From Thermotogota bacterium (GTDB taxonomy: Bacteria; Thermotogota; Thermotogae; UBA12178), in assembly GCA_021161835.1 (NCBI GenBank), contig JAGGZV010000003.1, positions 1-53,551 on the forward strand: a DNA stretch of 53,551 nt. The letters are read 5' to 3'. The notes beneath the pieces are model-generated. The model was given only the letters and a program-made list of their open reading frames with translations, was not told the origin of the DNA and made no database searches. A program made the position numbers and the translations under genes. Shown piece by piece: positions 26,810-39,910 of this stretch. Each line of letters opens with the position of its first letter. Position 1 is the stretch's first letter.

Positions 26810-28717
26810 TTATTCCACCGATTCGATGGCTTTTTTGAGATCTTCTTCGGAAATCCCTGTACTTTTCATAAGAATATTCACTTCTCCACTGAGCGCATAG
26901 TCTTTAACACCCAAAGGTATCACATTTATCGGTCGTATTCCGTTTTCAACGCACAGTTTGGTAAAGACGTTGTACAACCCTGTGTTCACGTTGTGATCTT
27001 CGTAAACTATCACGTGTTTACCGTGTGTCCAGGTTCGAAGAGTTTCAACGTCTGGGTGGAGTGGACATGACACGTTGAGAACCGTGACCTTCTTTCCCTG
27101 AAACCTCAATTCATCTGCAACTTTAACCGCCCTGTACAGAAGCTGTCCATATGTCAGAATGGTCACCGTTTCTCCCCTGCGTACCACATCCACCTTTCCA
27201 TACTCGAAGATGTAGTCGTTTCCAAAGAACGGAGTTCCATGTTCGGACAGCACCACCTCGAGTTTGGATCTGCCAACAGCCACGGTGAAATTTCCTTTAT
27301 GAGTTGCCGCATATCTTATGGCCCTATCAGTTTGATTTGGATCTCCAGGTACTATTAGATGCCAGTGGAAGAGGTTGGCGAGTACGCCCACATAATCTAC
27401 ACAATGATGGGTTTTTCCATCTTCGCCGACATCGGTTCCCGCATGTGTTATCAGAACTTTCAGATTTGTGTGATTGATGTCGTTCAAACGATGTTGATTG
27501 TAGGTTTCATCGACCCCAAATACGCCGAAATCGGCAAAAAACACCAGTACACCACTTACTGACATCGCACCTGCAATCGTCGCAGCGTTGTGTTCCTGAA
27601 CCCCTATTTCCACTACACGATCTGGGTTTTCTTTGGCGAGTATGTTCAATCTAACGGATCCTAGAAGGTCACAATCAATGGCATATATGGGTTTGTCAGG
27701 ATTCGCTCGAACGAGATCCGCTATAGCTTGGCCTGCCGCACTTCTGTTGTCGATCTTCGTGCCCGGTTTATAAGTGCGTGGTTCACCAGTGTTAATTTCT
27801 ATGCTCTCATCCTGTGGTATTGGACGTTCGTGGGATACAGGCAATTTCGAGCGCAGCTCTTCGTATTTGCTCAGATCTTTTTCCAATCCCAGTTCGTCCA
27901 TCGCTTTCCCATATTCTTCACGTTTCAACGGAACACCATGATATTTCACTTCATCTTCCATGAATGAAACACCTTTACCTATGGTGGTTTTAGCGATAAC
28001 CACCGTTGGTTTACCGTCTTCTACAGCTGCCTTTATAGCGGTGTAAAGTTCCGCATGGTTGTGGCCGTCCACTTCTTTCACTTCCCAGCCAGCTGCTTTG
28101 TACTCTTCTCTAATGTTCACAGGCATGATTTCCGATGCTTTTCCACTTATCTGAGCATCGTTGTAATCTATCACCACTGTTATGTTGTCCAACCCATACT
28201 TTGCTGCCGTTCTCCTTGCCTCAGCCACCTGCCCTTTGGCTTGTTCCGCGTCGCTCATCATGACAAAAACATGGTAGTCTCTTTTGGTGAACTTGGCAGC
28301 AAGCGCCATCCCCACCCCCGCTGATAATCCCTGTCCCAAATTGCCTGTAGTCCATTCAACCCCTGGAATTCCCCTGGTTATGTGTCCTTCAAATATCGAA
28401 CCCGGATGTCTGAAACCCGCTATCACCTCGTCTATATCGAAGAATCCCAGTCTTCCCAGAACCGCGTAAACGCCGGGAGCAGTATGTCCATGGCTGACCA
28501 CGATTCTATCCCTGTTGGGATCGTTGACATTTTTTGGACTTATGTTGGCGTATTTCCATACCACAAGATACATATCCACCGATGACATGGAACCCCCGGG
28601 ATGTCCTGATTTCGCCAACGTGGTCATCTTCAAAATATCACCACGGCATATACGTGCCAGTTCCTGCAGTTCTTTGACTTCCTCTTCTTTCAGCAGGGTG
28701 GCTTCGAATCTGCCCAA
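26810..28717 (-). CDS. tkt: Transketolase
   Basis: SGHPGGSMS, DR.VVSHGH, FEGH, TGNLGQGLS, SDAEQAKG...N (TPP motif variant), GVQEHN, DVGEDGKTH. Start placed at TTG 28717 behind SD GGAGGTG (alternative GTG 28726). Confidence 0.92.
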   Translation of the reverse strand: MGRFEATLLKEEEVKELQELARICRGDILKMTTLAKSGHPGGSMSSVDMYLVVWKYANISPKNVNDPNRDRIVVSHGHTAPGVYAVLGRLGFFDIDEVIAGFRHPGSIFEGHITRGIPGVEWTTGNLGQGLSAGVGMALAAKFTKRDYHVFVMMSDAEQAKGQVAEARRTAAKYGLDNITVVIDYNDAQISGKASEIMPVNIREEYKAAGWEVKEVDGHNHAELYTAIKAAVEDGKPTVVIAKTTIGKGVSFMEDEVKYHGVPLKREEYGKAMDELGLEKDLSKYEELRSKLPVSHERPIPQDESIEINTGEPRTYKPGTKIDNRSAAGQAIADLVRANPDKPIYAIDCDLLGSVRLNILAKENPDRVVEIGVQEHNAATIAGAMSVSGVLVFFADFGVFGVDETYNQHRLNDINHTNLKVLITHAGTDVGEDGKTHHCVDYVGVLANLFHWHLIVPGDPNQTDRAIRYAATHKGNFTVAVGRSKLEVVLSEHGTPFFGNDYIFEYGKVDVVRRGETVTILTYGQLLYRAVKVADELRFQGKKVTVLNVSCPLHPDVETLRTWTHGKHVIVYEDHNVNTGLYNVFTKLCVENGIRPINVIPLGVKDYALSGEVNILMKSTGISEEDLKKAIESVE

Positions 28718-28731
28718 GTCCCTCACCTCCT

Positions 28732-29775
28732 CTACAGAATGAGAAGCCGCCCTTCTGGATGGAACCGTTGATATAGCGACTTCCTTATTTCCTGATGTTT
28801 TCTATAAGAATCGAGGTGATTGTAACCCTCCATTTCCCAGGGGGGTGTGGACGGAAGCACCTTGTCGAAATCTTCGAGTAGTTTTTTCTCCAATTCTCCA
28901 TACTTTCCTTCAACGAAAGCCATGAAGGCCTCTTCAAAATCCTTCCACGATTCTTCCTCCCGACCAGGTACTATGGGATAGAAAAATCCGCTGTTATTCT
29001 TGACAGCCTTCAGATCACCGTAAGCATCTCCTATCATGAGTACCTGATGGTCTTCGTATCCTCCTGCCTTTTTTGCCATTTCTATGTGTTGCGCTTTTGT
29101 GCCCATTTCCTGCCCTGCTATCAGTGATATGTACTGTGTCAGGCCGTTGTTTTCCCAATAATCGGCGAGATCATTGTATGGTGTTTGGGAAACTATTATG
29201 ATATCAGCGTACTGTGCCATCAGCTCTAGTGCTTTCTTTACTCCGGAAAAGGGAGGTATTTTAGCGGATATGTGCGGAAAAGTTCTGTTGACCGCTTCAC
29301 TCCAGCCCAGCAATTTGTACAAAGCGAAATTCCTGGGTTGTTCTTCATTTATGTATTTCTCAAGACTGGGGTTGCCCAGACCGAGATTCATCTTCTTGGT
29401 GTACTCTATGAAATCGTCTACAATTTTCACATCCAGCAATTCCACGTTTTCTTCTTCCATCTTCTTGCGTACGTCACCCCGCGAAGCCAGAGCTTTCAGC
29501 GTCAGTTGAATGGCTATGAATCTGTTGCAACCTCTGTGTTTTGAGAAAAGATTGTAAAACTCGGCCGTTTCCCTGAAATAAGATTCTATGGGCCACAATC
29601 CGTAGAATTCCATGAAATGTGGATGAAAAATCAACATCTGCTTGCCGTTCATGTTATCCGTTACACATCCATCTGTATCAATGGCTACCAGCAGATCTTT
29701 GGAGCGTTTGAAATTCATCAATTGACGCTTTGGATCATCTTTCAGCATCTTTTCTGTCAACCTTTCGTATTTCAC
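28732..29775 (-). CDS. HAD-superfamily hydrolase
   Basis: Motif I AIDTDGC, motif II IIVSQT, motif III K, motif IV MIGDAYGD. GTG start at 29775 behind SD GAGGAGG. Confidence 0.85.
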   Translation of the reverse strand: MKYERLTEKMLKDDPKRQLMNFKRSKDLLVAIDTDGCVTDNMNGKQMLIFHPHFMEFYGLWPIESYFRETAEFYNLFSKHRGCNRFIAIQLTLKALASRGDVRKKMEEENVELLDVKIVDDFIEYTKKMNLGLGNPSLEKYINEEQPRNFALYKLLGWSEAVNRTFPHISAKIPPFSGVKKALELMAQYADIIIVSQTPYNDLADYWENNGLTQYISLIAGQEMGTKAQHIEMAKKAGGYEDHQVLMIGDAYGDLKAVKNNSGFFYPIVPGREEESWKDFEEAFMAFVEGKYGELEKKLLEDFDKVLPSTPPWEMEGYNHLDSYRKHQEIRKSLYQRFHPEGRLLIL

Positions 29776-29800
29776 TTGCTGTCCCTCCTCCGACAAAGGT

Positions 29801-31114
29801 TCATCTGTAGCCTGCTGATGTGTATTCCGGACACAGCTTGGGTGCGTAAATCTCTTTGAACTGTGCAAATCTGGGTAATGGTCCACCGATAAGTGGCATG
29901 GCCCACTTTATGAAATCATCTGTAACATCGGCCCTGTTGGGGGCAATCCATTCTTTGGGGAACGTGCGAGCCGAATTTGCCACCACTTCCAAAGGTACTT
30001 TATCATAAACTACCTCGTATTTTTCTCCCGGCACCCTTATTATCGTGGCCATGTAACCATTTTCTTCGTTCAAAGCAAGTTTCGCGGCATGTGCTCCTAC
30101 TTCGTAGGCTTCTCTTCGATCCACCTCTGAAACGTATGCTATCTCTCTTCTCTGCCTGGTGCCTGGTTTCTCATATCTTGCTATTCCTTTCACGATTAAT
30201 CTGGTTCGTGCTCTTCCCTGTTCGTCTTTTCTGTCGAGACCGTTCAAGTAGTTTGCCACCACTTGCTCGGCGGATCTTTCGGCGGCGCTGAACTGTGCAT
30301 GACCAAAAGCATCTTTCAATATCCCCAGGTCACCCACGTTCACTCCTTCACCAATAATAACGATACACCTTCCATGTTTTCTCAATGTTTCATTGACCAT
30401 ATCGGTTATGTACTCCAGGTTACCTTTCCAATCGTCCTTGGATAGAGCCTCGGGCAGGAAAATCAAGAGTGGCATTTTTCTTTCAGGATCGGCGAGCCTC
30501 GCAGCTGCAGGTATGAAACCTATTTTTCTTCCCATGACTCCTATTACCAGGACAGGGTCGCTGGTGTGGCTGGCCTTGTTCTCTTCGTTAGCTTCAAGCA
30601 CGTTGATAGCGATGTTGCGTGCCACGCTGCCGTATCCCGGATCATGGTCGCAAATTGCGAATGTTCCATCCGGCTGTAGGGGTCCACCCAGATCGTTGTC
30701 TATGGTTTTCGGTATACCCACCGCTACAAGATCCAGGCCTTCCTTTCTGGCAAGTATGCTGACCTTGTTCGCGGTGTCCATGGAGTCTTCACCGCCGCAG
30801 TAGAGGAAATATCCTACGTTGTGAGCTTTGAAAACCTCGACGATCCTCATCATGTCCTCTTCGCTTTTTATTTTGTATCTGCAGCTTCCTATAACACCGG
30901 CGGATGGTGTTTGTGAAAGTAAAGCGATCTCTCCTGGATCCTGAGCGGTTATATCTATTAGCTCTTCCCTCAAAACTCCCAGTATTCCCATACGTGCACC
31001 ATATACCTTGTCTATTTTTTCAGATTTGAGCAAAGTTTCGATGGCACCCTGAAGACTGGCATTTATAACAGAAGTTGGACCACCTGACTGGGCAACAACG
31101 GCATTTCGCTTCAT
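29801..31114 (-). CDS. PfkA-family kinase with PPi-dependent signature (PPi-phosphofructokinase-like)
   Basis: AQSGGPTSVINAS, GSCR, GGEDS and PKTIDND (the Asp/Lys pair diagnostic of PPi use), MGR, IGEG. Confidence 0.85.
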   Translation of the reverse strand: MKRNAVVAQSGGPTSVINASLQGAIETLLKSEKIDKVYGARMGILGVLREELIDITAQDPGEIALLSQTPSAGVIGSCRYKIKSEEDMMRIVEVFKAHNVGYFLYCGGEDSMDTANKVSILARKEGLDLVAVGIPKTIDNDLGGPLQPDGTFAICDHDPGYGSVARNIAINVLEANEENKASHTSDPVLVIGVMGRKIGFIPAAARLADPERKMPLLIFLPEALSKDDWKGNLEYITDMVNETLRKHGRCIVIIGEGVNVGDLGILKDAFGHAQFSAAERSAEQVVANYLNGLDRKDEQGRARTRLIVKGIARYEKPGTRQRREIAYVSEVDRREAYEVGAHAAKLALNEENGYMATIIRVPGEKYEVVYDKVPLEVVANSARTFPKEWIAPNRADVTDDFIKWAMPLIGGPLPRFAQFKEIYAPKLCPEYTSAGYR

Positions 31115-32406
31115 TTCACTTCCCTCCTAGCATAAAGATATTTACCACCGTGTTCTATCCATAACATTCCAGGCCCTTCAAAATCTTCTCGTTTTATACT
31201 TCCGGGATCTCGATAACCGAGATTTACGGCTTCACATACTTCCCTTGATATGCCCGTGGCCAGTGTGATCTTCAACTTGCATTTTTCAATGCCGCTTACT
31301 GGATCGTAAGTTCCTGGACCTCGAACATTTATAACGTGGGCTGCAACGTTGCGATCGAATTCTGGATGTTTTTTGAGAAATTCTCTGACATATCCTTTGC
31401 AATGGTAGCCGATCCTTCTTATACTTTCATCCATCATCTTGTTGGAGTGGAAGCAGTGTATATGAGGGGCATATATTATGATTTCCCCACCTTCTTTCAT
31501 TACTCCTGGACGTTGAAGTTTGTAGGATCCTTTGCCAGCTGTCCATATTTCATCGTATTCTGGGCCTATGACCTGTACTGCCACATTCAACGGTTCTTCG
31601 ATGTATACGATATGCAAACGGGAACTGGCATGCGCGGCACGTTCGTATGTCCTCAAAAAACCTTCCAATCCTTCGTCTATGTAAAGTCCTCTGGGTATTA
31701 TTCCCTCGTCGGTTTCATCGTATACCATGTTGAAAGAGATCACAGGGCATTGTGTTTTCTGGAATATCAATTCACATGCGGCATTTATCACATCACGTGC
31801 TGGATTGCTGAAGGATCCTATGATCTGTGGAATCCCTATCAATACAGCAGCCCAGTGAAACAGGCCAACAACTTCGGGTCCGGCGACCCCAGGGACGAAG
31901 ATTTTCAATCCACCCGAGAATCCGGTGGCTTCGTGCGGTACAGTACCGCTTATAGCTATTATCAGATCGAACTTTTCCACCAGCATTTTGTTTACAGTGA
32001 CCGGGAAGGGTAGATTCAGCTCCCCGTCGGTTTTCTCATGAACAAATTCTGGAGGCAGCTCACCTACAGTTGTTAAAGCGGCAGGGTCGTCGTATTCGTG
32101 ATTGTGGAAGAAGAGCGAATAGTCTTTTTGGGATAGTCCCAATTTTTCCAGAATCTCTGCTTCTGTCATCTTTCTGTGTGTGCCGCTTGCATTCAAGGTA
32201 TGACATTCTTTCAAACCTTTGCTCTTCAATTCTTCCAAAAGAGTGGGAAAGATGAGATGTGTAAAATCTATACGTGTATAATCAGGGTGGAGCACCAAAA
32301 CTCGCTCCACCCTGCCGAACTTTTCAATTGCTTCAACGACAGCCGCCTTTATTTCTTCTTCGCTCAAGGGTTCGGTGAAATTCTCGCGTACGATCATATT
32401 TCTCAC
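31111..32406 (-). CDS. LarA (lactate racemase) superfamily epimerase, candidate mannonate/gluconate 2-epimerase
   Basis: PDYTR, ASGTHR, HNHE, VPHEATGFSGGLK, LFHW; lies between uxuB/gnd and the Pfk gene. Alternative start ATG 32397. Confidence 0.8.
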   Translation of the reverse strand: MRNMIVRENFTEPLSEEEIKAAVVEAIEKFGRVERVLVLHPDYTRIDFTHLIFPTLLEELKSKGLKECHTLNASGTHRKMTEAEILEKLGLSQKDYSLFFHNHEYDDPAALTTVGELPPEFVHEKTDGELNLPFPVTVNKMLVEKFDLIIAISGTVPHEATGFSGGLKIFVPGVAGPEVVGLFHWAAVLIGIPQIIGSFSNPARDVINAACELIFQKTQCPVISFNMVYDETDEGIIPRGLYIDEGLEGFLRTYERAAHASSRLHIVYIEEPLNVAVQVIGPEYDEIWTAGKGSYKLQRPGVMKEGGEIIIYAPHIHCFHSNKMMDESIRRIGYHCKGYVREFLKKHPEFDRNVAAHVINVRGPGTYDPVSGIEKCKLKITLATGISREVCEAVNLGYRDPGSIKREDFEGPGMLWIEHGGKYLYARREVK

Positions 32407-33386
32407 TTCGGTATCTCTATGTTTTTGTCTGGTCTAGCTGCCTCCACTGTGCCTGCACCTGCTCCTTTCTTTCTCACCGCTTCGCCTTTGGTATAAACCC
32501 TGTGACCACCGAATTCTCTCCTGAGCGCTGCGAGTACCTTGTTGGAGAACACATCTTCCTGCCGTGATTCGAATCTCTTGAAGAGTGCATGGGCTATTCC
32601 TGTAACTGAAACTCCCATTTCTACCGCTTCCTGTACGGTCCAGCGTGCTTCACCTGAATCTTCCACGTATCCCTGTATTGATTCCAATTCGGGATCTTTT
32701 TCAAACGCTCTCTCGAGGAGTTCCAGTAACCATGAACGAATTACACTACCGTTGTTCCAGAGATGCGCGATGTCTTTCAACATGAAGTATTTACTGTATG
32801 GAGAGGCTTTCAACACCTCAAATCCTTCACCGTATGCTTCCATGATGGCGTATTCTATACCATTGTGCACCATTTTCACGAAGTGTCCTGCTCCAACCGG
32901 ACCGCAGTACAGGTATCCTCCTTCTGGTGCTAAATCTTTCAGAATCGGTTCTATGTAATCGAAATCTTCCTTTTCTCCTCCCACCATGGTGCAATATCCC
33001 TCTTTAAGACCCCATATACCACCTGATACACCTGCATCCATGTAGTGGACTCCTTTTTCTTTCAGCATCTCCGCGCGTCTTATATCATTTTTGTAGAAAT
33101 CGTTGGCACCGTTCACGATGATGTCCCCTTCTGAGAGAAGTTCTCCAAGCTTTTTCACATGTTCTTCCGTTGGGTCACCCAGGGGTAGCATCAACCATGC
33201 CACGCGTCTGGGATGCAATTTCTCCACAAATTCTTCAAGTGATTTCGAACCTATGGCTCCTTCTTTCATAATTTCCTCAACCTTGGCGTATGTTCTGTTG
33301 TATACGACCACTTCATGACCACGCTGAAGCAGTCTTCGCGCCATGTTCATACCCATTCTTCCAAGTCCAACTATTCCTATTTGCAT
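32403..33386 (-). CDS. gnd: Decarboxylating 6-phosphogluconate dehydrogenase (short form)
   Basis: GLGRMG, DAGVSGGIWG, GAGHFVKMVHNGIEY, WNNGSVIRSWL, DSGE.RW, LRREFGGH. Confidence 0.92.
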   Translation of the reverse strand: MQIGIVGLGRMGMNMARRLLQRGHEVVVYNRTYAKVEEIMKEGAIGSKSLEEFVEKLHPRRVAWLMLPLGDPTEEHVKKLGELLSEGDIIVNGANDFYKNDIRRAEMLKEKGVHYMDAGVSGGIWGLKEGYCTMVGGEKEDFDYIEPILKDLAPEGGYLYCGPVGAGHFVKMVHNGIEYAIMEAYGEGFEVLKASPYSKYFMLKDIAHLWNNGSVIRSWLLELLERAFEKDPELESIQGYVEDSGEARWTVQEAVEMGVSVTGIAHALFKRFESRQEDVFSNKVLAALRREFGGHRVYTKGEAVRKKGAGAGTVEAARPDKNIEIPK

Positions 33387-33414
33387 CGTCTTTCCCTCCT
33401 TTCACGGAATGTTT

Positions 33415-34245
33415 TCATACACCGGAAAATGCGTTGAATCCCCCATCCACAGGAATCACTGTGCCTGTGAGAAATCTGGAAGCATCCGATGCGAGGAAAA
33501 TGCATATTCCTGCGAGGTCATCCGGTTCTCCAAACCTGCCCATGGGGGTATGTTCTATGATCGTTTTGCCACGTTGAGTGAGATTCCCATTCTCATCCAG
33601 CAGCAGATATCTGTTTTGTTTCGTTAGGAAAAATCCGGGTGCTATGGCATTTACCCTCAAATTCCTGTTGTATTCCTGCGCAAAGTGTACGGCCAACCAT
33701 TGTGTGAAGTTACTCACGGCGGCTTTAGCTGCTGAATATCCGGGTATTCTCGTTAGTGGCCTGAAAGCATTCATCGACGAGATGTTTATTATGGAACCAC
33801 CATTTTCATTCTCTACCATGCTTCTTCCGAAAACCTGAGAAGGCAGTATGGCACCACCGAAAAGATTCAACGCCACCACTTTCTCGAGTGCCGACAGCGG
33901 TAGATCAAAGAAAGGTAAATCTTTCGATGTGGTGGCCTCTTTCATGTTGCCACCGGCGGCATTTACGAGGACATCCACACGTCCGAAGTCCTTCATTATA
34001 GCATCATGGCACTCTTTTATCTTCTCAATGTTGAGAACGTCTATATAATATCCTCGCACATTTATACCATGCTCCTTCGATAGCTTCTCTGCCACTTCCT
34101 GTGCGTTCACTATATCGCATATAGCTACTTCCGCCCCAGCTTTTGCCAGTGCCTCTGCTATTTTGGAACCCAGCACACCCGCTCCTCCCGTGACCACGGC
34201 CTTTTTACCTTCCAGGCTGAACAGTTCATCTATGAATTTCGCCAT
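33415..34245 (-). CDS. uxuB: SDR-family D-mannonate oxidoreductase (fructuronate reductase)
   Basis: TGGAGVLG, VNAAGGN, NISSMNAFRPLTRIPGYSAAK, FTQWLAVH, HTPMGRFG; directly downstream of uxaE. Start at ATG 34245. Confidence 0.82.
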   Translation of the reverse strand: MAKFIDELFSLEGKKAVVTGGAGVLGSKIAEALAKAGAEVAICDIVNAQEVAEKLSKEHGINVRGYYIDVLNIEKIKECHDAIMKDFGRVDVLVNAAGGNMKEATTSKDLPFFDLPLSALEKVVALNLFGGAILPSQVFGRSMVENENGGSIINISSMNAFRPLTRIPGYSAAKAAVSNFTQWLAVHFAQEYNRNLRVNAIAPGFFLTKQNRYLLLDENGNLTQRGKTIIEHTPMGRFGEPDDLAGICIFLASDASRFLTGTVIPVDGGFNAFSGV

Positions 34246-34256
34246 GTTTTCCCTCC

Positions 34257-35753
34257 TCACCTTTTTGTTCCCAACATCTCCAGGTGGCGACGTATATGTT
34301 TACCAACACATTCGTAATGTTCCTCCTCGTTTTCCATTAAGACCCTGTACAATTCATCGCGGAAGAGATAGGAACCATCTTCGTTTCTGGCTGTAAGCAC
34401 CGCTCCATAGGTTATATGAATCAATTGACGGGAATCGTTTGCGTTCAAAAAATCTTCGAGTTTTTCATCGGGTATGGAATCCAGATCCGGTATTTTGGAA
34501 AGATCAGTTGTAACGTGATACGAACGTCTCTCAATCTGAAACCTTTCCAGAGCGAAGCGGTGTATTCTCCTGTACAACTCAGGTGCTTTTCTAGCGATAA
34601 CCCTGATGGCTTCTAGATAACTGGTACCGGCGGTTTTAACATGGAACAACCCTTCGGTTGCTTGAGAAAAAGCGGGATAGGCTGAAAATTTGTCGCTACC
34701 CGAATGTAGCGAAAGTTTGTATCCACCGAAATGTCTGGCTATGGCAGCATGTAGATTGATTTCTCTTTCAAATTTCTTCAAATCGCCGATGTAATCTATG
34801 GCTTTTTGCCATTCTCCAACGAACCTCAGAGCGAGATTGGTGAATTCCACGCCCATCCTGCGCAACTCTTCCACTATGAAAATATGGGCCAATGGAGAGG
34901 TGGGAGTGTCGGTTTCATCCACAGAAACCTCGAAATCGAAACCATCCGATTTATAGGTCTTCAAAGTTTCATACATTTCCCTCACGAATTTCAAAGCATC
35001 GAAGTAGGTGACGATAGCATCAACCAGGGAATCTTCGTCGAAAATGAGAACTTGACCTTCGATTTCGTATTTTCTATTGAGATATCTTCTTTCCAGTTCG
35101 CTCCTTTTGGATATGGAACCATATATCTCCTTCTTTTTTTCAGGACTCATGGTGGATGTGTTCCTGACGAAATCCGAAGGATCTATGGTAAACATGGTGT
35201 AACCGCATTCCACTGCTTCCACTAGTTTGTCTGGATCTTTCACATGATCAGCATCGGCTCCAAATTTCCCTTTGTAACCTGCTTCGAAGCATCCCCATAT
35301 GGCACTGTCCATAACATCTTCCCAATTTCTTCTGGTGCGTTCCAGTTCTCTGACAGATTGTTGGGCGAAGAAAGGAAAGATATCTTTCCCTTCGAAAGCT
35401 TTGACATGTGCAGGTGTGGCTATACCAAGCCTATCTCCAGTACCGAAGGATTTCTTTAAACCACATGGGGATGGATTAAGATGGGGAAACAATCTTCTGA
35501 GAATCTGAAGATTTTCATGAGTGGTGGGAGCAATTTTCAACTTTTGGTTTTCTTCGAGATTTCTAATTGATCTTTCGTAGATACCACGAAACAATCCACA
35601 TACTGCGGATTCTCCGACAATTACGAGATATTTCGATTTATCACCTCGTGCCAGAAAAAAAAGGTTCGAATCTCTTTGTAACAGGGATGAGGTGTACGGT
35701 ACATATTGATATCCTGTGGTTTTCAACAGGATATCGAAGACCTCCGATCTCAA
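34257..35753 (-). CDS. uxaE: Tagaturonate/fructuronate epimerase
   Basis: GTGDRLGIATPAH, AQQSVREL.RT, GADADH, TMFTIDPS, FEVSVDE, KLSLHSGSDKFS, HVKTAGTSYLEA, RQLIHITYG. Confidence 0.93.
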   Translation of the reverse strand: MRSEVFDILLKTTGYQYVPYTSSLLQRDSNLFFLARGDKSKYLVIVGESAVCGLFRGIYERSIRNLEENQKLKIAPTTHENLQILRRLFPHLNPSPCGLKKSFGTGDRLGIATPAHVKAFEGKDIFPFFAQQSVRELERTRRNWEDVMDSAIWGCFEAGYKGKFGADADHVKDPDKLVEAVECGYTMFTIDPSDFVRNTSTMSPEKKKEIYGSISKRSELERRYLNRKYEIEGQVLIFDEDSLVDAIVTYFDALKFVREMYETLKTYKSDGFDFEVSVDETDTPTSPLAHIFIVEELRRMGVEFTNLALRFVGEWQKAIDYIGDLKKFEREINLHAAIARHFGGYKLSLHSGSDKFSAYPAFSQATEGLFHVKTAGTSYLEAIRVIARKAPELYRRIHRFALERFQIERRSYHVTTDLSKIPDLDSIPDEKLEDFLNANDSRQLIHITYGAVLTARNEDGSYLFRDELYRVLMENEEEHYECVGKHIRRHLEMLGTKR

Positions 35754-35759
35754 TTTTCA

Positions 35760-36539
35760 TCATCTCCTTCCAGGTGATACTTTTTCTACTGTTACCCCTT
35801 TCTCACGAAGGAATTTTTCAACGTTCGTTGGAATACCTTCGTCTGTTATAAGATAATGAACGTCTTCCGGAAAGGCGAAGGAAGCGAATGCTTTTCTGTT
35901 GAACTTTGTAGAATCGGATACAACCACCACTCTGGAAGCACTTTTCACCATGGCCCTTTTGGTATCCGCTTCAACCACGCTGGGTGTCATGAACCCTCTT
36001 TCTTTTGAGAATCCCGTTGTACCCATGAAGGCTATGTCCACACTTATTTCCTGCAGGAATTTAAGTGTCCATGGACCTATTATGGATAGACTGTTTTCTC
36101 TGATAGTACCACCCAAAACGATTATTTCGGCATTGGTTTCGATCAATTTACTGGCTATGAAAACATTGTTGGTAACGATGGTGAGGTGTTTCCATGAGCG
36201 CTTAAGCATTTCGAGAGCGAGATAGTAATTGGTGCTGCTGCTATCGAGTATCACCGTGTCCCCATCTTCGATCATGTTCACTGCAACACTGGCTATAGCC
36301 TTTTTTTCCTCTTCTCGCTGATGGATCTTTCTTAGAAAATTCCACTCCGAACGAGAATGCGTTGGAAGAATAGCACCCCCATGAGTTCTAAGTAACTTCC
36401 CTTCTTGTTCCAAAGCGTCCAGATCCTTACGTATGGTGACTTCACTCACTTCGAAAAGTTTCGATAATTGAGCCACCGTGACCTTTCCCGAAGCCCTCAA
36501 CAATTCCACAATTTTCGATCTTCTTTCTTCTGTGAACAT
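35760..36539 (-). CDS. DeoR/GlpR-family transcriptional regulator
   Basis: MFTEERR..I, VSEVTIRKDL..LE..G...RTHGGA, EKKAIA, LDSSST, VTNN, DSTKF. Start at ATG 36539 after SD GGAGG. Confidence 0.93.
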   Translation of the reverse strand: MFTEERRSKIVELLRASGKVTVAQLSKLFEVSEVTIRKDLDALEQEGKLLRTHGGAILPTHSRSEWNFLRKIHQREEEKKAIASVAVNMIEDGDTVILDSSSTNYYLALEMLKRSWKHLTIVTNNVFIASKLIETNAEIIVLGGTIRENSLSIIGPWTLKFLQEISVDIAFMGTTGFSKERGFMTPSVVEADTKRAMVKSASRVVVVSDSTKFNRKAFASFAFPEDVHYLITDEGIPTNVEKFLREKGVTVEKVSPGRR

Positions 36540-36558
36540 GGTGTATCGCCTCCGATAT

Positions 36559-36587
36559 ATTGTATAATGAAGTTGCGAATTATTCAA
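36559..36587 (-). promoter_or_regulatory. Promoter of the deoR-uxaE...tkt operon
   Basis: Minus strand TTGAAT-17 bp-TACAAT. Confidence 0.65.
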
Positions 36588-36748: not shown

Positions 36749-37936
36749 GTGAAAGCTGTCCGACTACATGCCAAATGGGATCCCAGACCCGAATTCAAGT
36801 TGGGACCCAAAGATGTAGAAGGAAAACTCACATGGCTGGGTAGCAAAGTCTGGCGGTATCCTGAAGTGCTCATTGAAGATGTACCAGAGCCTAAAATAGA
36901 AAAGCCTTCTGAAGTAATAATCAGAGTGAGAGCCGTAGGGATATGTGGAAGCGATGTGCACATGGCGCAAGCTGATGAAGATGGATACACCCTTTACCCT
37001 GGTTTGACCGGTTTTCCGGTGACACTGGGACATGAATTTTCTGGCGAAGTGGTTGAAGCGGGGCCGGAAGCAATAAACAGAAGAACCAACAAACCTTTTG
37101 AACCGGGTGAACCTGTCACAGCGGAGGAAATGTTGTGGTGTGGATATTGTCGACCATGTGCCGATGGTTATCCAAATCACTGTGAAAATCTGAAGGAACT
37201 GGGTTTCGATACTGACGGAGCGTTTGCAAAATACATCAAAGTCGACGCCAAGTATCTCTGGAGCTTGAGGGAGCTTGAAGGTGTTTACGAAGGAGACAAA
37301 CTCTTTATGGCCGGAAGCCTTGTTGAACCCACTTCCGTTGCTTACAATGCGGTTATAGAGCGTGGCGAGGGCATAAGACCTGGTGACAACGTTGTCATAT
37401 TTGGTGGAGGACCTATCGGTCTGGCAGCCGTAGGAATATTGAAACATGGAGGGGCGGCAAAAGTCATACTTTCGGAACCTTCTGAAATCCGCCGGAAAAT
37501 GGCTCTGGAATTGGGAGCGGATCATGTTATAGATCCAACGAAGGAGAACTTCGTGGAAGCACTTCTGGATTATACCAACGGTATGGGGGCCAAGCTCTAT
37601 CTTGAAGCAACCGGTGTACCGCACATAATATGGAAGGATATAGAAGAGGCCATATGGAGATCCAGAGGTATAAATGCAACCGTCGTTATAGTTGCCAGAG
37701 CCGATGTGAAGATACCGTTGACAGGCGAAGTTTTCCAGGTTAGAAGAGCGAGAATAGTTGGAGCACAGGGTCATTCCGGTCACGGAACTTTCCCCAGGGT
37801 GATCAGTCTCATGGCAAGTGGACTCGATATGACCAAAATAATATCCAAAACAGTCTCTCTGGATGAGATTCCTGAGTACATTAAGAAGCTGCAGACTGAC
37901 AAGAGTCTCGTGAAGGTAACCTGTTTGAATCCGTGA
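36749..37936 (+). CDS. iolM: scyllo-Inosose 3-dehydrogenase (Zn-dependent MDR)
   Basis: N-terminus AVRLHAKWDPRPEFKLGPKD.EGKLTWLGSKVWRYP matches Thermotoga IolM as I recall it; GICGSD, GHE, CxxCxxC...C, GGGPIG. Confidence 0.92.
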   Translation: MKAVRLHAKWDPRPEFKLGPKDVEGKLTWLGSKVWRYPEVLIEDVPEPKIEKPSEVIIRVRAVGICGSDVHMAQADEDGYTLYPGLTGFPVTLGHEFSGEVVEAGPEAINRRTNKPFEPGEPVTAEEMLWCGYCRPCADGYPNHCENLKELGFDTDGAFAKYIKVDAKYLWSLRELEGVYEGDKLFMAGSLVEPTSVAYNAVIERGEGIRPGDNVVIFGGGPIGLAAVGILKHGGAAKVILSEPSEIRRKMALELGADHVIDPTKENFVEALLDYTNGMGAKLYLEATGVPHIIWKDIEEAIWRSRGINATVVIVARADVKIPLTGEVFQVRRARIVGAQGHSGHGTFPRVISLMASGLDMTKIISKTVSLDEIPEYIKKLQTDKSLVKVTCLNP

Positions 37937-37947
37937 GGTGTTTGAAG

Positions 37948-38928
37948 ATGAGAGAAGTAAAAGTAGGGGTAGTGGGGACGGGTTTCATAGGTCAAGTTCA
38001 TCTGGATATACTCAAGGATCTCAAGGGTGTCAAAATAGGCGGGATCGTTGAAGCCGATCCCGCCCGTGCTTCCCGTGTATGTGAAAAATACGGTACCAAG
38101 AATTATTCTAATCTCAAAGAACTGAGAGATGCAGGCGTTGAAGCTGTATACATCACCACCCCCAACAAAACGCATTTCAATTTAGCCATGGAAGCCATAG
38201 AACTTGGTTTCCACGTGTTCTGTGAAAAACCCATGACCATAAGTTTGCAGGATGCGAAGGAACTGGAAAAAGCGGTCAATGAGAAAGGCGTTGTATTCCA
38301 GGTTGGTCACAACAGGCGTTTCGCATATGTTTACAAATTCATGAAAGAAAAGATAGAAACCGGGGAGTTGCGTCCCTACTCCTTCCAGATAAAGATGAAC
38401 AGGGGCGAGCTCCTCAACCCGCCGTGGGTTTCTGACAGAAGCTATACGGGAGGGTTTTTATTCGAAAGTACGCTTCATCTCTTCGACATGATGAGATTTC
38501 TCTTCGGTGATGTCGCCAGAATGTATGTTCTTGGAAAGAAGAGTGTTTATAATGATTTCGATGATTGGGCAATAGCGGTGGAAATGAAGAATGGAATAAT
38601 AGGAACCTTTACTTCGTGTGCACATGCCAGCTGGATGATACCTTTCGAACGGGTCGAAGTGTATGGGGAACACAAGATGCTTTCCAATGATGAAATGGAG
38701 AAAGTTTATTACTGTAAGGGCCTTGACAAAGAAGTGGAAATACACGATTACATGAAGGTAGATTTCAAGGAAAAATGGGGATACGTTGAAGAAGATGAGA
38801 AATTTATTGAGGCTGTGAGAAATGGTTCTTCGCCCGTGGTGACAGTTACCGATGGAGTGAAGGCCATAGAGATAGTTGATGCATGTTACAGAGCGGTTGA
38901 GGGTGGAGAAGGATACGTTGAATTTTGA
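37948..38928 (+). CDS. Gfo/Idh/MocA dehydrogenase, probable inositol dehydrogenase
   Basis: GTGFIG, CEKP, GHNRRF, GGFLFESTLHLFD; lies between iolM and iolN. Start at ATG 37948. Confidence 0.82.
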   Translation: MREVKVGVVGTGFIGQVHLDILKDLKGVKIGGIVEADPARASRVCEKYGTKNYSNLKELRDAGVEAVYITTPNKTHFNLAMEAIELGFHVFCEKPMTISLQDAKELEKAVNEKGVVFQVGHNRRFAYVYKFMKEKIETGELRPYSFQIKMNRGELLNPPWVSDRSYTGGFLFESTLHLFDMMRFLFGDVARMYVLGKKSVYNDFDDWAIAVEMKNGIIGTFTSCAHASWMIPFERVEVYGEHKMLSNDEMEKVYYCKGLDKEVEIHDYMKVDFKEKWGYVEEDEKFIEAVRNGSSPVVTVTDGVKAIEIVDACYRAVEGGEGYVEF

Positions 38929-38941
38929 GGAGGTAGATACA

Positions 38942-39910
38942 ATGTCCAAATGGCAGATTCCTCCAGAAGGTGGACACATGGAAAAGCCAACGGGTGTTTA
39001 TTTCCAGACTATGACAATGAAGGAGATAAAGGAAAGATTGAAGAAGTGTGATCTCATAATAATACCCGTTGGTAGTACTGAAAATCATGGTCCCAACGCT
39101 CCCACCGGAGAAGACACCTTCCTTGTCACCAGAATGGCAGAGCAAGTGGCTTTAAAAACAGGATGTACGGTTGCAGAACCCATATGGTATGGATTTCATC
39201 CCTATCATCACATAGGTATGCCTGGAACCGTGCCTGTGAAAGACGAAGCCTTCATAGATCTATTGGTGAGTGTCATGGCAGGGTTCTGGAACTCCGGGTT
39301 CAGGAAGCAGATACTCCTGAATGGACACGGTCAGGAATTCGTTATCCCCATAGCTATCCACAAATTCGCCAAGATTTTTCAGGTTCCTGCATTGATAATC
39401 AATTTGAACTGGTATCACGCCATTCAGGACAAGTTCAAGACGAAGGAAGAGGGCGGACCATACGAAACGCCTTTCATACATGCCGATGAAGTGGAAAGTT
39501 CCTGGAGTCTTGCACTGTTTCCGGAATTTATGCATCAGGAGTGGGCAGTGGATACGCAGCCAACCGGCTTTCTGCCAGAAGGACACATCGATAAGGCGGG
39601 CAACCTATTGCACAGACCCATAGCATGGTACGGTCATGTTGGAGCAGGGCCGATAGAAGTTGCGCAGTACCCAGAAGGTGTCGTGGGTAAAGCCACTGCG
39701 GCCAGTGCCGACAAAGCAAGGGAAGGCGTGGAAGCTTTCCTCGATTATCTGGAAAAGCTCGTGAATGATATCATGGAAACCTTCCCGCCTGGAAAGTTGC
39801 CGCCAGCCGAAAAGCTCACACAGAGAGCCAAAGAGGAGATTGAAGCCCTTCTCAAAGAACCTTTCACGGAAGGATGGAAGAGTTTGTATTCTGCGGGAAA
39901 TATGTGGTGA
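38942..39910 (+). CDS. iolN: 3-dehydro-scyllo-inosose hydrolase (creatininase family)
   Basis: PTGVYFQTMT, PVGSTENHG, GEDT, HPYHHIGMPGT, NGHG, HADEVE; near-identical to Thermotoga IolN as I recall it. Start at ATG 38942. Confidence 0.92.
   Translation: MSKWQIPPEGGHMEKPTGVYFQTMTMKEIKERLKKCDLIIIPVGSTENHGPNAPTGEDTFLVTRMAEQVALKTGCTVAEPIWYGFHPYHHIGMPGTVPVKDEAFIDLLVSVMAGFWNSGFRKQILLNGHGQEFVIPIAIHKFAKIFQVPALIINLNWYHAIQDKFKTKEEGGPYETPFIHADEVESSWSLALFPEFMHQEWAVDTQPTGFLPEGHIDKAGNLLHRPIAWYGHVGAGPIEVAQYPEGVVGKATAASADKAREGVEAFLDYLEKLVNDIMETFPPGKLPPAEKLTQRAKEEIEALLKEPFTEGWKSLYSAGNMW

What the first reader, a model, noticed from the sequence alone, without database searches (positions are those of the whole stretch)
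26810..36539. Lower inositol/hexuronate pathway with no gluconokinase or transaldolase: a PPi-type PfkA and a HAD hydrolase fill the gap
Seen: a tightly packed operon deoR-uxaE-uxuB-gnd-larA-like-pfkA(PPi)-HAD-tkt. Established: in Thermotoga maritima, tagaturonate passes through UxaE, UxuB, a LarA-family mannonate/gluconate epimerase (GntE), gluconokinase GntK and Gnd. Every step is represented here except the kinase. In its place, translationally coupled to the epimerase (ATGA overlap at 31111-31114), is a PfkA-family protein with PPi determinants (GGEDS, PKTIDND) and unusual acceptor-side motifs (IGVMGR instead of xE[VT]MGR; KPGTRQRR instead of LG[HY]xQR). Inference, two alternatives. (a) It is a PPi-dependent aldonate (gluconate/mannonate) kinase, an activity I do not know for this family. 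(b) It phosphorylates sedoheptulose-7-P to run a transaldolase-free pentose phosphate pathway with Tkt, as known for some clostridial PPi-PFKs. Either would be an ATP-sparing variant route.
Basis: partly seen in the sequence, partly recalled or inferred. Interest (0 to 1): 0.8.

Follow-up and report, generated by a model that had tools for sequence, protein, structure and literature searches.

The report
PFK-like kinase replacing gluconate kinase
A heat-loving bacterium's operon for burning inositol and uronic acids carries a divergent phosphofructokinase-family enzyme and a phosphatase-like partner where relatives have an ordinary gluconate kinase. This suggests an untested new job for a textbook enzyme family.

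Summary
The operon is real and as described: DeoR, UxaE, mannonate oxidoreductase, short Gnd, GntE, a PfkA-family protein ("PfkX"), a HAD hydrolase and Tkt. The ATGA overlap and the quoted motifs are also confirmed.

GntE is a close homologue of the assayed T. maritima mannonate/gluconate 2-epimerase. No gluconokinase was found in this 86%-complete genome. A transaldolase and two canonical PFKs are present, so the "transaldolase-free" reading fails here.

- **Clade and context.** PfkX belongs to a long-branched clade found in at least six phyla. HAD lies next to it in 45 of 48 evaluable loci, and a 6-phosphogluconate dehydrogenase is in 32 of 39.
- **Thermotogota genomes (151).** PfkX and HAD occur in exactly the same 14. 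All 14 have Gnd, none has Zwf, and none has a Thermotoga-type GntK.
- **GntE-positive genomes (29).** 13 have PfkX, 9 have GntK, 7 have neither and none has both.
- **Fusion.** One metagenomic protein fuses Gnd to a PfkX-like domain.

Best reading (about 0.5): PfkX is the pathway's aldonate (gluconate) kinase, probably PPi-dependent. The role of HAD is unresolved.

Two puzzles remain: the seven genomes with neither kinase, and the absence of NPN-cofactor genes (larB, larC) beside an intact GntE.

This scan noted the same module earlier in Bacteroidales windows. My literature searches found nothing in print.

The parts
35760..36587 (-). DeoR-family regulator, first gene of the operon
   Evidence: PF00455 172 bits and PF08220 66 bits. 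Homologues at 65-69% identity head the same operon in related Thermotogota loci.
34257..35753 (-). UxaE, tagaturonate/fructuronate epimerase
   Evidence: PF16257 639 bits over the whole profile.
33415..34260 (-). SDR fructuronate reductase / D-mannonate oxidoreductase (UxuB-type)
   Evidence: NF006132 356 bits, cut-off 281.
32403..33386 (-). Short-type 6-phosphogluconate dehydrogenase (Gnd)
   Evidence: NF007161 435 bits (cut-off 271) and TIGR00872 399 bits (cut-off 297).
31111..32406 (-). GntE, LarA-family D-mannonate/D-gluconate 2-epimerase homologue
   Evidence: 570 bits, E 2.4e-170, to PDB 4NAR. That entry is T. maritima GntE2, assayed as D-gluconate 2-epimerase (PMC7583248, passages). D42, R45, H77, H158, K168 and H184 are invariant in 54 homologues.
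29801..31114 (-). PfkX: divergent PfkA-family kinase with PPi-type donor signature; candidate aldonate (gluconate) kinase
   Evidence: PF00365 109 bits and NF010675 353 bits. Nearest structures are 3HNO and 3K2Q. Clade-specific substitutions and two insertions. Context and co-occurrence. Its start overlaps the GntE stop.
28732..29775 (-). HAD-IA hydrolase (phosphatase or phosphomutase type), obligate partner of PfkX
   Evidence: PF13419 33 bits. Motifs I-IV are invariant in 20 orthologues (D33, D35, S196/T198, K227, D250, D254). The AF2 model has pLDDT 91.5. Foldseek matches beta-PGM and sugar phosphatases. It occurs in the same 14 of 151 Thermotogota genomes as PfkX.
26810..28726 (-). Transketolase, last gene of the operon; a lineage-specific addition
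   Evidence: NF004556 1004 bits. A close Tkt homologue lies downstream only in L013 (72% identity); L043 has a 30% Tkt hit and the remaining loci of the 80 fetched have none.
36749..39910 (+). Divergent genes: Zn-ADH, GFO/IDH/MocA oxidoreductase and creatininase-family hydrolase. They are the presumed upper inositol route that yields tagaturonate.
   Evidence: Pfam. The same trio lies beside the operon in Pseudothermotoga loci at 66-94% identity. The T. maritima TM0411-0416 pathway ends in D-tagaturonate (PMC5931981, passage). Assigning these genes to IolM/IolG/IolN is my recollection and inference.
39969..42695 (+). Ribose-type ABC transporter (binding protein, permease, ATPase) following the inositol genes
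   Evidence: PF13407, PF02653 and PF00005.

Best explanation
The operon converts D-tagaturonate to ribulose-5-phosphate. The tagaturonate comes from the neighbouring inositol genes or from uronates.

1. UxaE converts tagaturonate to fructuronate.
2. The SDR reductase converts fructuronate to D-mannonate.
3. GntE converts D-mannonate to D-gluconate.
4. A kinase converts D-gluconate to 6-phosphogluconate.
5. Gnd converts 6-phosphogluconate to ribulose-5-P, which Tkt and the rest of the pentose phosphate pathway drain.

The kinase step is carried out by PfkX. PfkX is a divergent PfkA-family enzyme that has displaced the FGGY gluconokinase of Thermotoga. It probably uses PPi as donor and binds the aldonate carboxylate where PFK binds the 6-phosphate of F6P.

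The HAD protein is a catalytically intact phosphatase or mutase that works with PfkX. Its role is inferred only. My preferred guess is removal of a wrongly phosphorylated aldonate such as 6-phospho-mannonate.

What is shown: the gene identities, the clade, and the co-occurrence and context patterns. What is inferred: the acceptor, the donor and the HAD role.
For: 1. **Position.** In 8 Thermotoga-type loci the gene after gntE is an FGGY kinase. Its best NCBIfam match is gntK_FGGY. Here, and in 12 other Thermotogota genomes, PfkX-HAD fills that slot, with translational coupling to gntE.

2. **Complementary distribution.** Of 29 GntE-positive Thermotogota genomes, 13 have PfkX and no GntK orthologue (best FGGY hit 31% identity or less where listed). 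Nine have GntK at 54-100% identity and no PfkX. None has both. SKI-type GntK is in 0 of 151.

3. **Orphan Gnd.** All 14 PfkX genomes have Gnd and 0 of 14 have Zwf. Five of them are 99% complete. 6-phosphogluconate therefore needs another source.

4. **Cross-phylum linkage to 6PGDH.** Gnd lies in 32 of 39 loci with enough flank. It is the short type here and the long canonical type in Atribacterota, Aerophobetes and Brocadiaceae. Brocadiaceae loci hold only Gnd-HAD-PfkX.

5. **Fusion.** P0273 (933 aa) fuses a complete 6PGDH (residues 6-442) to a PfkX-like domain (506-931, 51% identity).

6. **PfkX is not the housekeeping PFK.** The genome has two canonical PFKs. PfkX and its nearest relatives form a 100%-supported, long-branched clade.

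7. **Active-site pattern.** The clade keeps the catalytic residues (D127, D129, MGR, E222, R243, R252 by alignment). It has lost E167 and H/Y249, gained an invariant Arg after R252, and carries two conserved insertions next to the acceptor site.

8. **Donor.** GGxDS with Asp, and PKTIDND with Lys, fit the PPi signature GGDD described in PMC12203962 (passage).

9. **This genome.** No UxuA, GntK or Zwf was found.
Against: - No enzyme of this clade has been assayed.
- In the review I read (PMC12203962, passages), PfkA-family acceptors are sugar phosphates (F6P, S7P). PfkX keeps two of the phosphate-binding arginines and adds more, which could equally mean a phosphorylated acceptor.
- A plain kinase swap does not explain an obligate HAD partner: the same 14 of 151 genomes, adjacent in 45 of 48 loci.
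- Seven GntE-positive genomes (G094-G099, G101) have neither PfkX nor GntK. Some other kinase, or no kinase, serves there.
- A second FGGY paralogue (XylB 270 bits, gntK 252 bits) exists in Pseudothermotoga with and without PfkX. It cannot be excluded as a gluconokinase, although its neighbours look like a diketogulonate-type cluster.
- The Brocadiaceae genome tested has Zwf, and its loci lack hexuronate genes.
- Four of 30 PfkX-positive Atribacterota genomes have Zwf.
- Four loci show PfkX without HAD or Gnd beside it: L058 and L062 have neither, L075 has Gnd but no HAD, and L014 has neither.
- larC is in 0 of 14 PfkX genomes and larB in 1 of 14. The GntE step that should supply gluconate is therefore itself unexplained.
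- The window's genome is only 85.8% complete.
- The patterns are partly clade-level, so independent events are few.
Confidence: 0.5

Rival explanations
1. PfkX is a sugar-phosphate PPi-PFK (S7P, F6P or Ru5P acceptor). It is co-expressed with Gnd and Tkt to drain the pentose phosphates the operon produces, through the sedoheptulose-1,7-bisphosphate route. The gluconate kinase is some other, unrecognised protein.
For: - Family membership and retained R243 and R252.
- Known S7P activity of PPi-PFKs (PMC12203962, passages; PMC7029132, title and abstract start only).
- Linkage to Gnd and, here, to Tkt.
- In Pseudothermotoga genus g37, none of the 7 PfkX-positive genomes shows a canonical Tal. G102, G103 and G105 have weak hits only, G107 has none, and G104, G106 and G108 have a short type. 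The one PfkX-negative genome, G101, has a canonical Tal.
- One locus places PfkX after aroB-aroQ, a pathway that needs erythrose-4-P.
- The seven genomes with neither kinase show that an unknown gluconate kinase may exist anyway.
Against: - This genome has a canonical Tal and two canonical PFKs, one with the PPi signature. G149, G004 and G049 also have a canonical Tal with PfkX.
- Sister genus g36 lacks both canonical Tal and PfkX.
- The reading leaves the kinase gap open in 13 genomes.
- It gives no role to HAD; a bisphosphatase would make a futile cycle.
- A Gnd::PfkX fusion makes little sense for non-consecutive steps.
- The conserved E167 and H/Y249 are lost.
Confidence: 0.2
2. PfkX phosphorylates a different acidic intermediate, and later enzymes act on phosphorylated forms. 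The candidate substrates are D-fructuronate or D-tagaturonate at C1 (they are isosteric with F6P and tagatose-6-P, with a carboxylate in place of the phosphate ester), or D-mannonate at C6. HAD then carries out a second phosphoryl step as a mutase, transferase or selective phosphatase. The two proteins together form a two-component phosphorylation module.
For: - Chemical analogy (my inference): fructuronate furanose differs from F6P only at C6.
- The strict PfkX-HAD pairing suggests two linked phosphoryl-transfer steps.
- The nearest HAD folds include beta-phosphoglucomutase.
- The cap carries invariant K45, R68, R81 and R85.
- The reported Km of T. maritima GntE2 for free mannonate is high, 17 mM (PMC7583248, table passage).
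Against: - Brocadiaceae loci keep Gnd-HAD-PfkX without UxaE, reductase or GntE, so keto-uronates are not a common denominator.
- GntE is 60-66% identical to an enzyme that acts on free mannonate.
- No precedent was seen in the papers I read.
- The Foldseek matches of HAD are generic for subfamily IA (E about 1e-5, TM 0.3-0.4).
Confidence: 0.2
3. PfkX is an ordinary F6P-specific PPi-PFK for glycolysis or gluconeogenesis, and its place in the operon has no pathway meaning.
For: Public annotations call the homologues diphosphate--fructose-6-phosphate 1-phosphotransferase. The NF010675 score is above its cut-off.
Against: - The same neighbours recur across at least six phyla.
- PfkX co-occurs perfectly with HAD.
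- Two other PFKs are in the genome.
- PfkX lies on a long, well-supported separate branch and has altered acceptor-side residues.
Confidence: 0.05

Closest known systems
Thermotoga maritima hexuronate-to-pentose-phosphate branch (gnd, uxaE, uxaD, gntE, gntK; Rodionova et al. 2012, as cited in PMC3750489 and PMC7583248)
   Same: UxaE, a fructuronate reductase, GntE (570 bits to the T. maritima structure 4NAR) and a 6-phosphogluconate dehydrogenase lie in one operon. The logic is the same: mannonate to gluconate to 6-phosphogluconate to Ru5P, with no UxuA/KDG branch.
   Different: - There is no FGGY GntK; PfkX plus HAD stand in its place.
- Gnd is the short type.
- The reductase is the UxuB-like SDR, only 34% identical to the Thermotoga locus reductase.
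- The regulator is DeoR-type.
- Tkt is appended.
- The NPN-cofactor genes larB and larC, present in Thermotoga, were not found here.
PPi-dependent phosphofructokinases of the PRK14072 type (structures 3HNO Nitrosospira multiformis, 3K2Q Marinobacter aquaeolei)
   Same: Same fold (Foldseek TM 0.74-0.76, 35-36% identity; 216-218 bits by sequence). Same GGxDS and PKTIDND donor-side motifs, MGR, the E222 equivalent and the QR motif.
   Different: - Separate long branch.
- The Glu before xMGR is replaced by G, T, Q, S or K.
- The Tyr/His before xQR is replaced by Thr.
- An extra invariant Arg follows QR.
- A conserved insertion 'GGxLQxDGTFAICDH' follows DND, and a basic insertion of about 17 residues precedes the R243 equivalent.
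- It is dedicated to a sugar-acid operon and always accompanied by HAD.
Gluconokinases (FGGY type such as the Thermotoga gntK product; SKI type, TIGR01313)
   Same: The proposed reaction and the place in the pathway: next to gntE and gnd. B. subtilis gntK-gntZ is a recalled analogy.
   Different: There is no sequence or fold relationship. PfkX is PfkA-family, the proposed donor is PPi rather than ATP, and it needs or keeps a HAD partner.
TM0415, PPi-dependent ribokinase-family kinase in the T. maritima inositol operon (PMC5931981)
   Same: It is a precedent for a PPi-dependent kinase with an unconventional acceptor encoded inside a Thermotogota inositol catabolic cluster (passages).
   Different: It belongs to a different protein family (PfkB/ribokinase), and its assayed acceptor (myo-inositol) is different. 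No homologue was sought here.

Membership tests
PfkA phosphofructokinase family (PF00365) | Sequence match above the curated cut-offs, and the PFK fold | tested here: met
   PF00365 109 bits (cut-off 30.9). NF010675 353 bits (cut-off 273). Foldseek top hits 3K2Q and 3HNO, TM 0.74-0.76.
PfkA phosphofructokinase family (PF00365) | Catalytic residues: Asp127/Asp129 in TIDND, MGR, Glu222 (E. coli numbering, recalled) | tested here: met
   PKTIDND, VMGR and GEG are present and invariant in 20 clade members.
F6P-specific PFK (EC 2.7.1.11 / 2.7.1.90) | Full set of F6P 6-phosphate ligands (Arg162, Arg243, His/Tyr249, Arg252) and the conserved xE[VT]MGR motif (residue roles recalled) | tested here: not met
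   R243 and R252 are kept. Position 249 is Thr. Position 162 is Pro, though it is also not Arg in the wider PRK14072-like group. The Glu of ExMGR is replaced in all 17 members of the extended clade.
PPi-dependent PFK (donor specificity) | Asp in GGxD (GGDD rather than GGDG), and Lys in PKTIDND | tested here: met
   GGEDS and PKTIDND. The GGDG/GGDD rule is in PMC12203962 (passage); the Lys rule is recalled. Position 103 is Glu, Gly or Asn rather than Asp. Donor use was not assayed.
Gluconokinase families (FGGY gntK TIGR01314; SKI-type TIGR01313) | Homology to either family | tested here: not met
   PfkX matches neither. In the genome, the best gntK_FGGY score is 210 bits (cut-off 648) and the best TIGR01313 score is 21.7 bits (cut-off 113.75). 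'Works like' is proposed; membership is not.
Thermotoga GntE route (hexuronate to 6-phosphogluconate) | UxaE, fructuronate reductase, GntE and Gnd are all present | tested here: met
Thermotoga GntE route (hexuronate to 6-phosphogluconate) | FGGY GntK next to GntE | tested here: not met
   PfkX-HAD lie there instead. No orthologue was found in the genome: the best hit has E 7e-44, which is paralogue level.
NPN-dependent LarA superfamily (for GntE) | Conserved cofactor and catalytic residues | tested here: met
   D42, R45, H77, H158, K168 and H184 are invariant in 54 of 54 homologues. Their equivalence to LarA active-site residues rests on the phmmer alignment and on recalled residue roles.
NPN-dependent LarA superfamily (for GntE) | NPN biosynthesis genes larB, larC and larE in the genome | tested here: not met
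   Own genome: no LarC and no LarB. LarC is in 0 of 14 and LarB in 1 of 14 PfkX genomes. LarE scores over its cut-off only in the Thermotoga-type control among 5 genomes tested.
HAD superfamily, subfamily IA (C1 cap) | Motifs I-IV (DxD, S/T, K, GDxxxD) and a Rossmannoid core with a helical cap | tested here: met
   D33, D35, S196/T198, K227, D250 and D254 are invariant. The AF2 model has pLDDT 91.5. Foldseek hits are beta-PGM, YniC, mannitol-1-P phosphatase and PGP. The substrate is not testable here.
Transaldolase-free SBP pentose phosphate pathway | Absence of transaldolase from the genome | tested here: not met
   TAL_FSA match of 227 bits at C5:10977-11606.

The most novel reading that the evidence does not exclude
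PfkX is the first PfkA-family enzyme whose natural acceptor is a non-phosphorylated sugar acid. It would be a PPi-driven gluconate (aldonate) 6-kinase that works only as a two-protein module with a dedicated HAD phosphoryl-transfer enzyme. The module is spread across Thermotogota, Atribacterota, Aerophobetes, Latescibacterota, Planctomycetota and (from earlier scan notes) Bacteroidales. It operates beside a LarA-type epimerase in genomes that lack every recognisable gene for its nickel-pincer cofactor. That implies an unknown cofactor supply as well.
Probability: 0.35. Interest if true: 0.78.

Novelty: new variant of a known kind. Interest (0 to 1): 0.62.

Why it matters
Phosphofructokinase is among the most studied enzyme families. 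In the 2025 review I read in passages (PMC12203962), its accepted acceptors are F6P and S7P, and the word 'gluconate' does not occur in it.

A clade that phosphorylates an aldonate with PPi would:
- add a new activity to the family;
- save one ATP per uronate or inositol molecule in anaerobic fermenters;
- correct a widespread annotation, since homologues are all auto-named PPi-PFK;
- close the gap in the GntE route for many uncultured lineages.

The obligate HAD partner and the missing NPN genes are concrete, testable puzzles. The proteins are small, thermostable and easy to express.

Tried and rejected
- **Complex prediction.** PfkX plus HAD, each given as an alignment of 20 rows, returned 'no answer' (score 0.00, mark 0.32). 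This counts neither for nor against binding.
- **HAD substrate.** The PDB sequence search found nothing significant (best E 0.065). The Atlas gave only HAD_2 / 'phosphoglycolate phosphatase family' clusters. Foldseek hits are generic for subfamily IA. No longer, fused forms of HAD were found, which is weak evidence.
- **Kinase in the 'neither' genomes.** The genes around Gnd in G095, G101, G094 and G107 include no candidate. The FGGY gene about 30 kb from gntE is a true XylB (621 bits).
- **PfkB kinases of this genome.** They are fructokinase/IolC-like, ribokinase-like and 1-PFK-like. None is a gluconokinase.
- **GntE-PfkX fusion ORF.** The apparent 836-aa fusion in L051 lacks the first 31 PfkX residues, including the phosphate loop. 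I treat it as a possible frameshift or assembly artefact, not as evidence.
- **PfkX AF2 model.** pLDDT is only 78.8 and is low across the insertion at 139-160. No residue-level geometry could be read from the tools.
- **Papers not held.** Rodionova 2012 (PMC4505799) and the T. maritima sugar kinome paper (PMC3458674). What I say of them is second-hand or recalled.
- **Supplements closed.** Table S1 of PMC7583248 lists gene contexts of the LarA groups and may already show PFK or HAD COGs next to group 20.
- **Rejected idea.** PfkX and HAD do not replace the NPN biosynthesis genes, because genus g36 lacks larB, larC, PfkX and HAD alike.

Full report
**1. What is there**

The minus strand from 36587 to 26810 carries eight closely packed genes. 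Pfam and NCBIfam identify them as follows.

| Gene | Best match |
|---|---|
| DeoR regulator | PF00455, PF08220 |
| UxaE | PF16257, 639 bits |
| SDR D-mannonate oxidoreductase | NF006132, 356 bits (cut-off 281) |
| Short 6-phosphogluconate dehydrogenase | TIGR00872, 399 bits (cut-off 297) |
| LarA-family protein | see section 2 |
| PfkA-family protein, here 'PfkX' | PF00365, 109 bits; NF010675, 353 bits (cut-off 273) |
| HAD_2 protein | PF13419, 33 bits |
| Transketolase | NF004556, 1004 bits |

The PfkX start overlaps the stop of the LarA-like gene in ATGA, behind AGGAGGG. The HAD gene most likely starts at the GTG at 29775, behind GGAGGAGGG.

On the other strand, from 36749, lie a Zn-ADH, a GFO/IDH/MocA oxidoreductase, a creatininase-family hydrolase and a ribose-type ABC transporter. 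A xylose-isomerase-like TIM-barrel gene lies further on.

This resembles the T. maritima TM0411-0416 inositol pathway. [quoted passage not shown] Assigning individual genes to IolM, IolG, IolN and IolO is my recollection and inference.

**2. The known part of the pathway**

The LarA-like protein scores 570 bits (E 2.4e-170) against PDB 4NAR. That entry is T. maritima GntE2, shown in vitro to epimerise D-mannonate to D-gluconate with the nickel-pincer (NPN) cofactor (PMC7583248, passages).

In T. maritima the locus is gnd, uxaE, uxaD, gntE, gntK (PMC3750489, passages). So every step from tagaturonate to ribulose-5-P has a candidate here except the kinase.

**3. The rest of the genome** (85.8% complete, 105 contigs)

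- It has two further, canonical PFKs. One is PFKA_ATP type, next to pyruvate kinase. The other is PFK_mixed type with GGDDT and PKTIDND.
- It has a transaldolase (227 bits).
- I found no UxuA, no Zwf, no SKI-type gluconokinase (best 21.7 bits against 113.75) and no FGGY gluconokinase.
- The two FGGY genes are a GlpK and a XylB-like gene beside a LacI regulator.
- The three PfkB kinases are fructokinase/IolC-like, ribokinase-like and 1-PFK-like.

**4. PfkX is a distinct clade**

- A search of 1.84 billion cluster representatives found 4206 relatives at E up to 0.001. The best full-length hits have 68, 60, 53, 52 and 50% identity, after which identity falls to 45% or below.
- In a quick IQ-TREE of 33 sequences, 13 PfkX sequences and these four nearest representatives form a clade. 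It has 100% SH-aLRT support on a branch of length 1.07, apart from 14 other PRK14072-like proteins and the genome's two canonical PFKs. This was the quick search; the careful one did not finish.
- The nearest solved structures are 3HNO and 3K2Q, deposited by structural genomics as PPi-PFKs.

By alignment the clade keeps these features:
- the donor-side GGxDS with Asp, and PKTIDND with Lys;
- MGR, and the equivalents of E222, R243 and R252.

It differs in these:
- the Glu of xExMGR is replaced (by G, T, Q, S or K);
- the His/Tyr before xQR is replaced by Thr;
- it has an invariant extra Arg after QR;
- it carries two conserved insertions, 'GGxLQxDGTFAICDH' right after DND and a basic stretch before the R243 equivalent.

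The residue roles are recalled from the E. coli and B. stearothermophilus literature. The GGDG/GGDD donor rule is in PMC12203962 (passage).

**5. Gene neighbourhoods across phyla**

A scan of one genome per species returned 80 loci. 73 of them are 61-84% identical to PfkX. They come from Thermotogota, Atribacterota/Caldatribacteriota, Aerophobetes, Latescibacterota, Ratteibacteria, Actinomycetota (Humimicrobiaceae) and Planctomycetota (Brocadiaceae). The other 7 loci are only 33-36% identical.

I probed the loci by tblastn with the window's proteins.
- 72 loci have a PfkX hit at 55% identity or more over at least half its length.
- 48 of these have at least 1.3 kb on both sides. In 45 of the 48 the HAD gene is adjacent. 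The exceptions are L058, L062 and L075, all Actinomycetota.
- 39 loci have at least 4 kb upstream. Gnd is present in 32 of them, a GntE at 45% identity or more in 20, the reductase in 22 and UxaE in 18.

The Gnd next to PfkX is the long canonical 6PGDH in Atribacterota, Aerophobetes and Brocadiaceae (Pfam). Two different Gnd types are therefore linked to PfkX.

Brocadiaceae loci hold only Gnd-HAD-PfkX. L062 shows KduI-SDR-KDPG aldolase-PfkB-PfkX. L014 shows aroB-aroQ-PfkX.

**6. Genome-wide patterns in Thermotogota** (151 genomes, including this one)

| Feature | Genomes of 151 | In the 14 PfkX genomes |
|---|---|---|
| PfkX | 14 | 14 |
| HAD partner | 14 (the same 14) | 14 |
| GntE | 29 | 13 |
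| Gnd | 74 | 14 |
| Zwf | 48 | 0 |
| SKI-type GntK | 0 | 0 |

- In G001, PfkX, HAD and Gnd-GntE lie on three different contigs, so the pair is kept even when unlinked.
- With the FGGY kinase that follows gntE in a Thermotoga-type genome as query, orthologues (45-100% identity) are in G138-G145, G002, G003 and G148 only.
- Among the 29 GntE-positive genomes, 13 have PfkX without GntK, 9 have GntK without PfkX, 7 have neither (G094-G099, G101) and 0 have both.

In the 'neither' group the operon ends at gntE, followed by rpsB or by an RRXRR-type gene. I found no kinase near their Gnd.

A second FGGY paralogue of uncertain type (XylB 270 bits, gntK 252 bits) is present in Pseudothermotoga with and without PfkX. 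Its neighbours are a TRAP transporter, an SDR, an RpiR regulator and a 2-hydroxyacid dehydrogenase. These patterns follow clades, so the number of independent events is small.

**7. Replicates outside the phylum**

- In 86 Atribacterota genomes PfkX is in 30 and Zwf in 29. Four genomes have both. The split again follows clades.
- Of five genomes reached from loci, Zwf is absent from the Atribacterota, Aerophobetes, Actinomycetota and Latescibacterota genomes. It is present in the Brocadiaceae genome.

**8. Fusion evidence**

Among longer proteins, one metagenomic sequence (P0273, 933 aa, one contig) joins a complete 6PGDH (residues 6-442) to a PfkX-like domain (506-931). That domain is 51% identical to PfkX over its whole length and belongs to the extended clade, with 'QMMGRK' and 'GTDQRD'. 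A fusion of the enzyme that consumes 6-phosphogluconate with the proposed producer fits the kinase reading. It is a single observation.

An 836-aa GntE-PfkX ORF in L051 lacks the PfkX N-terminal loop and may be an artefact.

**9. The HAD partner**

- All four HAD motifs are invariant in 20 orthologues from five or more phyla. So are several basic cap residues (K45, R68, R81, R85).
- The model is confident (pLDDT 91.5).
- It matches subfamily IA enzymes: beta-phosphoglucomutase, YniC, mannitol-1-phosphatase, phosphoglycolate phosphatase and a HAD pyrophosphatase. The scores are generic.

It is therefore an active phosphoryl-transfer enzyme whose substrate I cannot name.

My preferred guess is a phosphatase that clears a mis-phosphorylated aldonate, for example 6-phospho-mannonate. 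This is by analogy with the repair role recalled for eukaryotic PGP/Pho13 on 4-phosphoerythronate, an inhibitor of 6PGDH. A mutase or transferase step is the alternative. Both are inference.

**10. An unexplained finding**

The NPN biosynthesis genes are missing where PfkX occurs.
- LarC is in 22 of 151 genomes and LarB in 22 of 151, nearly the same set.
- Among GntE-positive genomes, LarC is in 8 of 9 GntK-type, 0 of 13 PfkX-type and 0 of 7 'neither' genomes.
- LarB is in 1 of the 14 PfkX genomes (G005).
- LarE scores above its cut-off only in the Thermotoga-type control among five genomes tested.
- Four of the PfkX genomes tested are 99% complete.
- Yet D42, R45, H77, H158, K168 and H184 of GntE are invariant in 54 of 54 homologues. 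These residues align with LarA's active-site residues.

Either the cofactor is acquired or made in an unknown way, or this GntE lineage uses something else. This weakens the certainty of the step that should deliver gluconate to PfkX.

**11. Transaldolase across the phylum**

TAL_FSA is in 141 of 151 genomes. The PfkX genomes divide as follows.
- Canonical Tal: G000, G149, G004 and G049, plus a partial match in G005.
- Only a shorter type (profile positions 1-238): G104, G106, G108.
- Only weak hits: G001, G102, G103, G105.
- None: G150 (82% complete) and G107 (99% complete).

The PfkX-negative G101, of the same genus, has a canonical Tal. The PfkX-negative sister genus g36 has only the short type. 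So the S7P-kinase idea is excluded as a necessity here, but not as an activity elsewhere.

**12. Is it in print?**

- A search for 'pyrophosphate-dependent' with 'gluconate kinase' and 'phosphofructokinase' found three papers, none relevant by title and abstract start.
- A search for 'Atribacter' with 'gluconate' and 'phosphofructokinase' found none.
- The 2025 PFK superfamily review contains no occurrence of 'gluconate'.
- The UxaE/tagaturonate search listed ten papers. I read passages of two of them.
- I could not see the supplements of PMC7583248, whose Table S1 lists the gene contexts of the LarA groups.

Earlier notes of this scan describe the same PFK-like plus HAD pair in place of GntK in several Bacteroidales windows. 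These are unchecked AI notes, not independent evidence. They do suggest a still wider range.

**13. Verdict**

- Interpretation (a) is the best-supported reading, at about 0.5.
- Interpretation (b) fails for this genome.
- The pathway as a whole is known. The kinase module is a new variant, not found in print by my searches, and directly testable.
- The obligate HAD partner, the seven genomes with neither kinase and the missing NPN genes are left unexplained by any reading.

Noticed in passing
window 31111-32406 (GntE); genome-wide in G000 and Thermotogota genomes: An apparently competent LarA-family epimerase sits in genomes with no recognisable nickel-pincer cofactor genes. All six active-site residues are invariant in 54 homologues. 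LarC is in 0 of 14 PfkX genomes and 0 of 18 genomes of family f9. LarB is in 1 of 14. LarE scores over its cut-off only in the Thermotoga-type control.
   Followed up: partly
L094-L099 (G094-G099, G101): Seven GntE-positive Pseudothermotoga-type genomes have the same DeoR-UxaE-reductase-GntE operon but neither PfkX-HAD nor a Thermotoga-type GntK. The operon ends at gntE, followed by rpsB. In G101 an RRXRR-type gene lies nearby, which may mark a loss.
   Followed up: partly
P0273 (metagenomic protein, 933 aa): A single-polypeptide fusion of a full 6-phosphogluconate dehydrogenase with a PfkX-like kinase domain. It comes from one sequence on one 7.2-kb contig.
   Followed up: partly
L051:1959-4469: An 836-aa ORF joins GntE to PfkX in an Atribacterota MAG. 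The first 31 PfkX residues, including the phosphate loop, are missing. It may be a frameshift or assembly artefact.
   Followed up: partly
L062:5969-11299; L014:11-2571: Two atypical contexts of PfkX. An Actinomycetota locus has KduI-SDR-KDPG aldolase-PfkB kinase-PfkX without HAD or Gnd. A Thermotogota MAG has aroB-aroQ-PfkX, with HAD and Gnd-GntE on other contigs.
   Followed up: partly
Thermotogota genomes G102-G108 versus G101: Within one Pseudothermotoga genus, the PfkX-positive genomes lack a canonical transaldolase. They have only a shorter TAL_FSA type, weak hits or nothing. The one PfkX-negative genome has a canonical one.
   Followed up: no
window 23356-26776: Just downstream of the operon's end lie two ROK-family genes, the first with an N-terminal winged-helix domain, and a PIG-L/LmbE-type deacetylase. 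ROK regulators control the inositol operon in T. maritima (PMC3750489, passage).
   Followed up: no
window 42743-48767: A second sugar ABC system (SBP_bac_1, two permeases, MalK-type ATPase) is followed by a xylose-isomerase-like TIM-barrel gene (47044-47940) and an ORF with no Pfam match (47937-48767). Relatives of that ORF recur near PfkX-HAD in Atribacterota loci at 32-39% identity.
   Followed up: no
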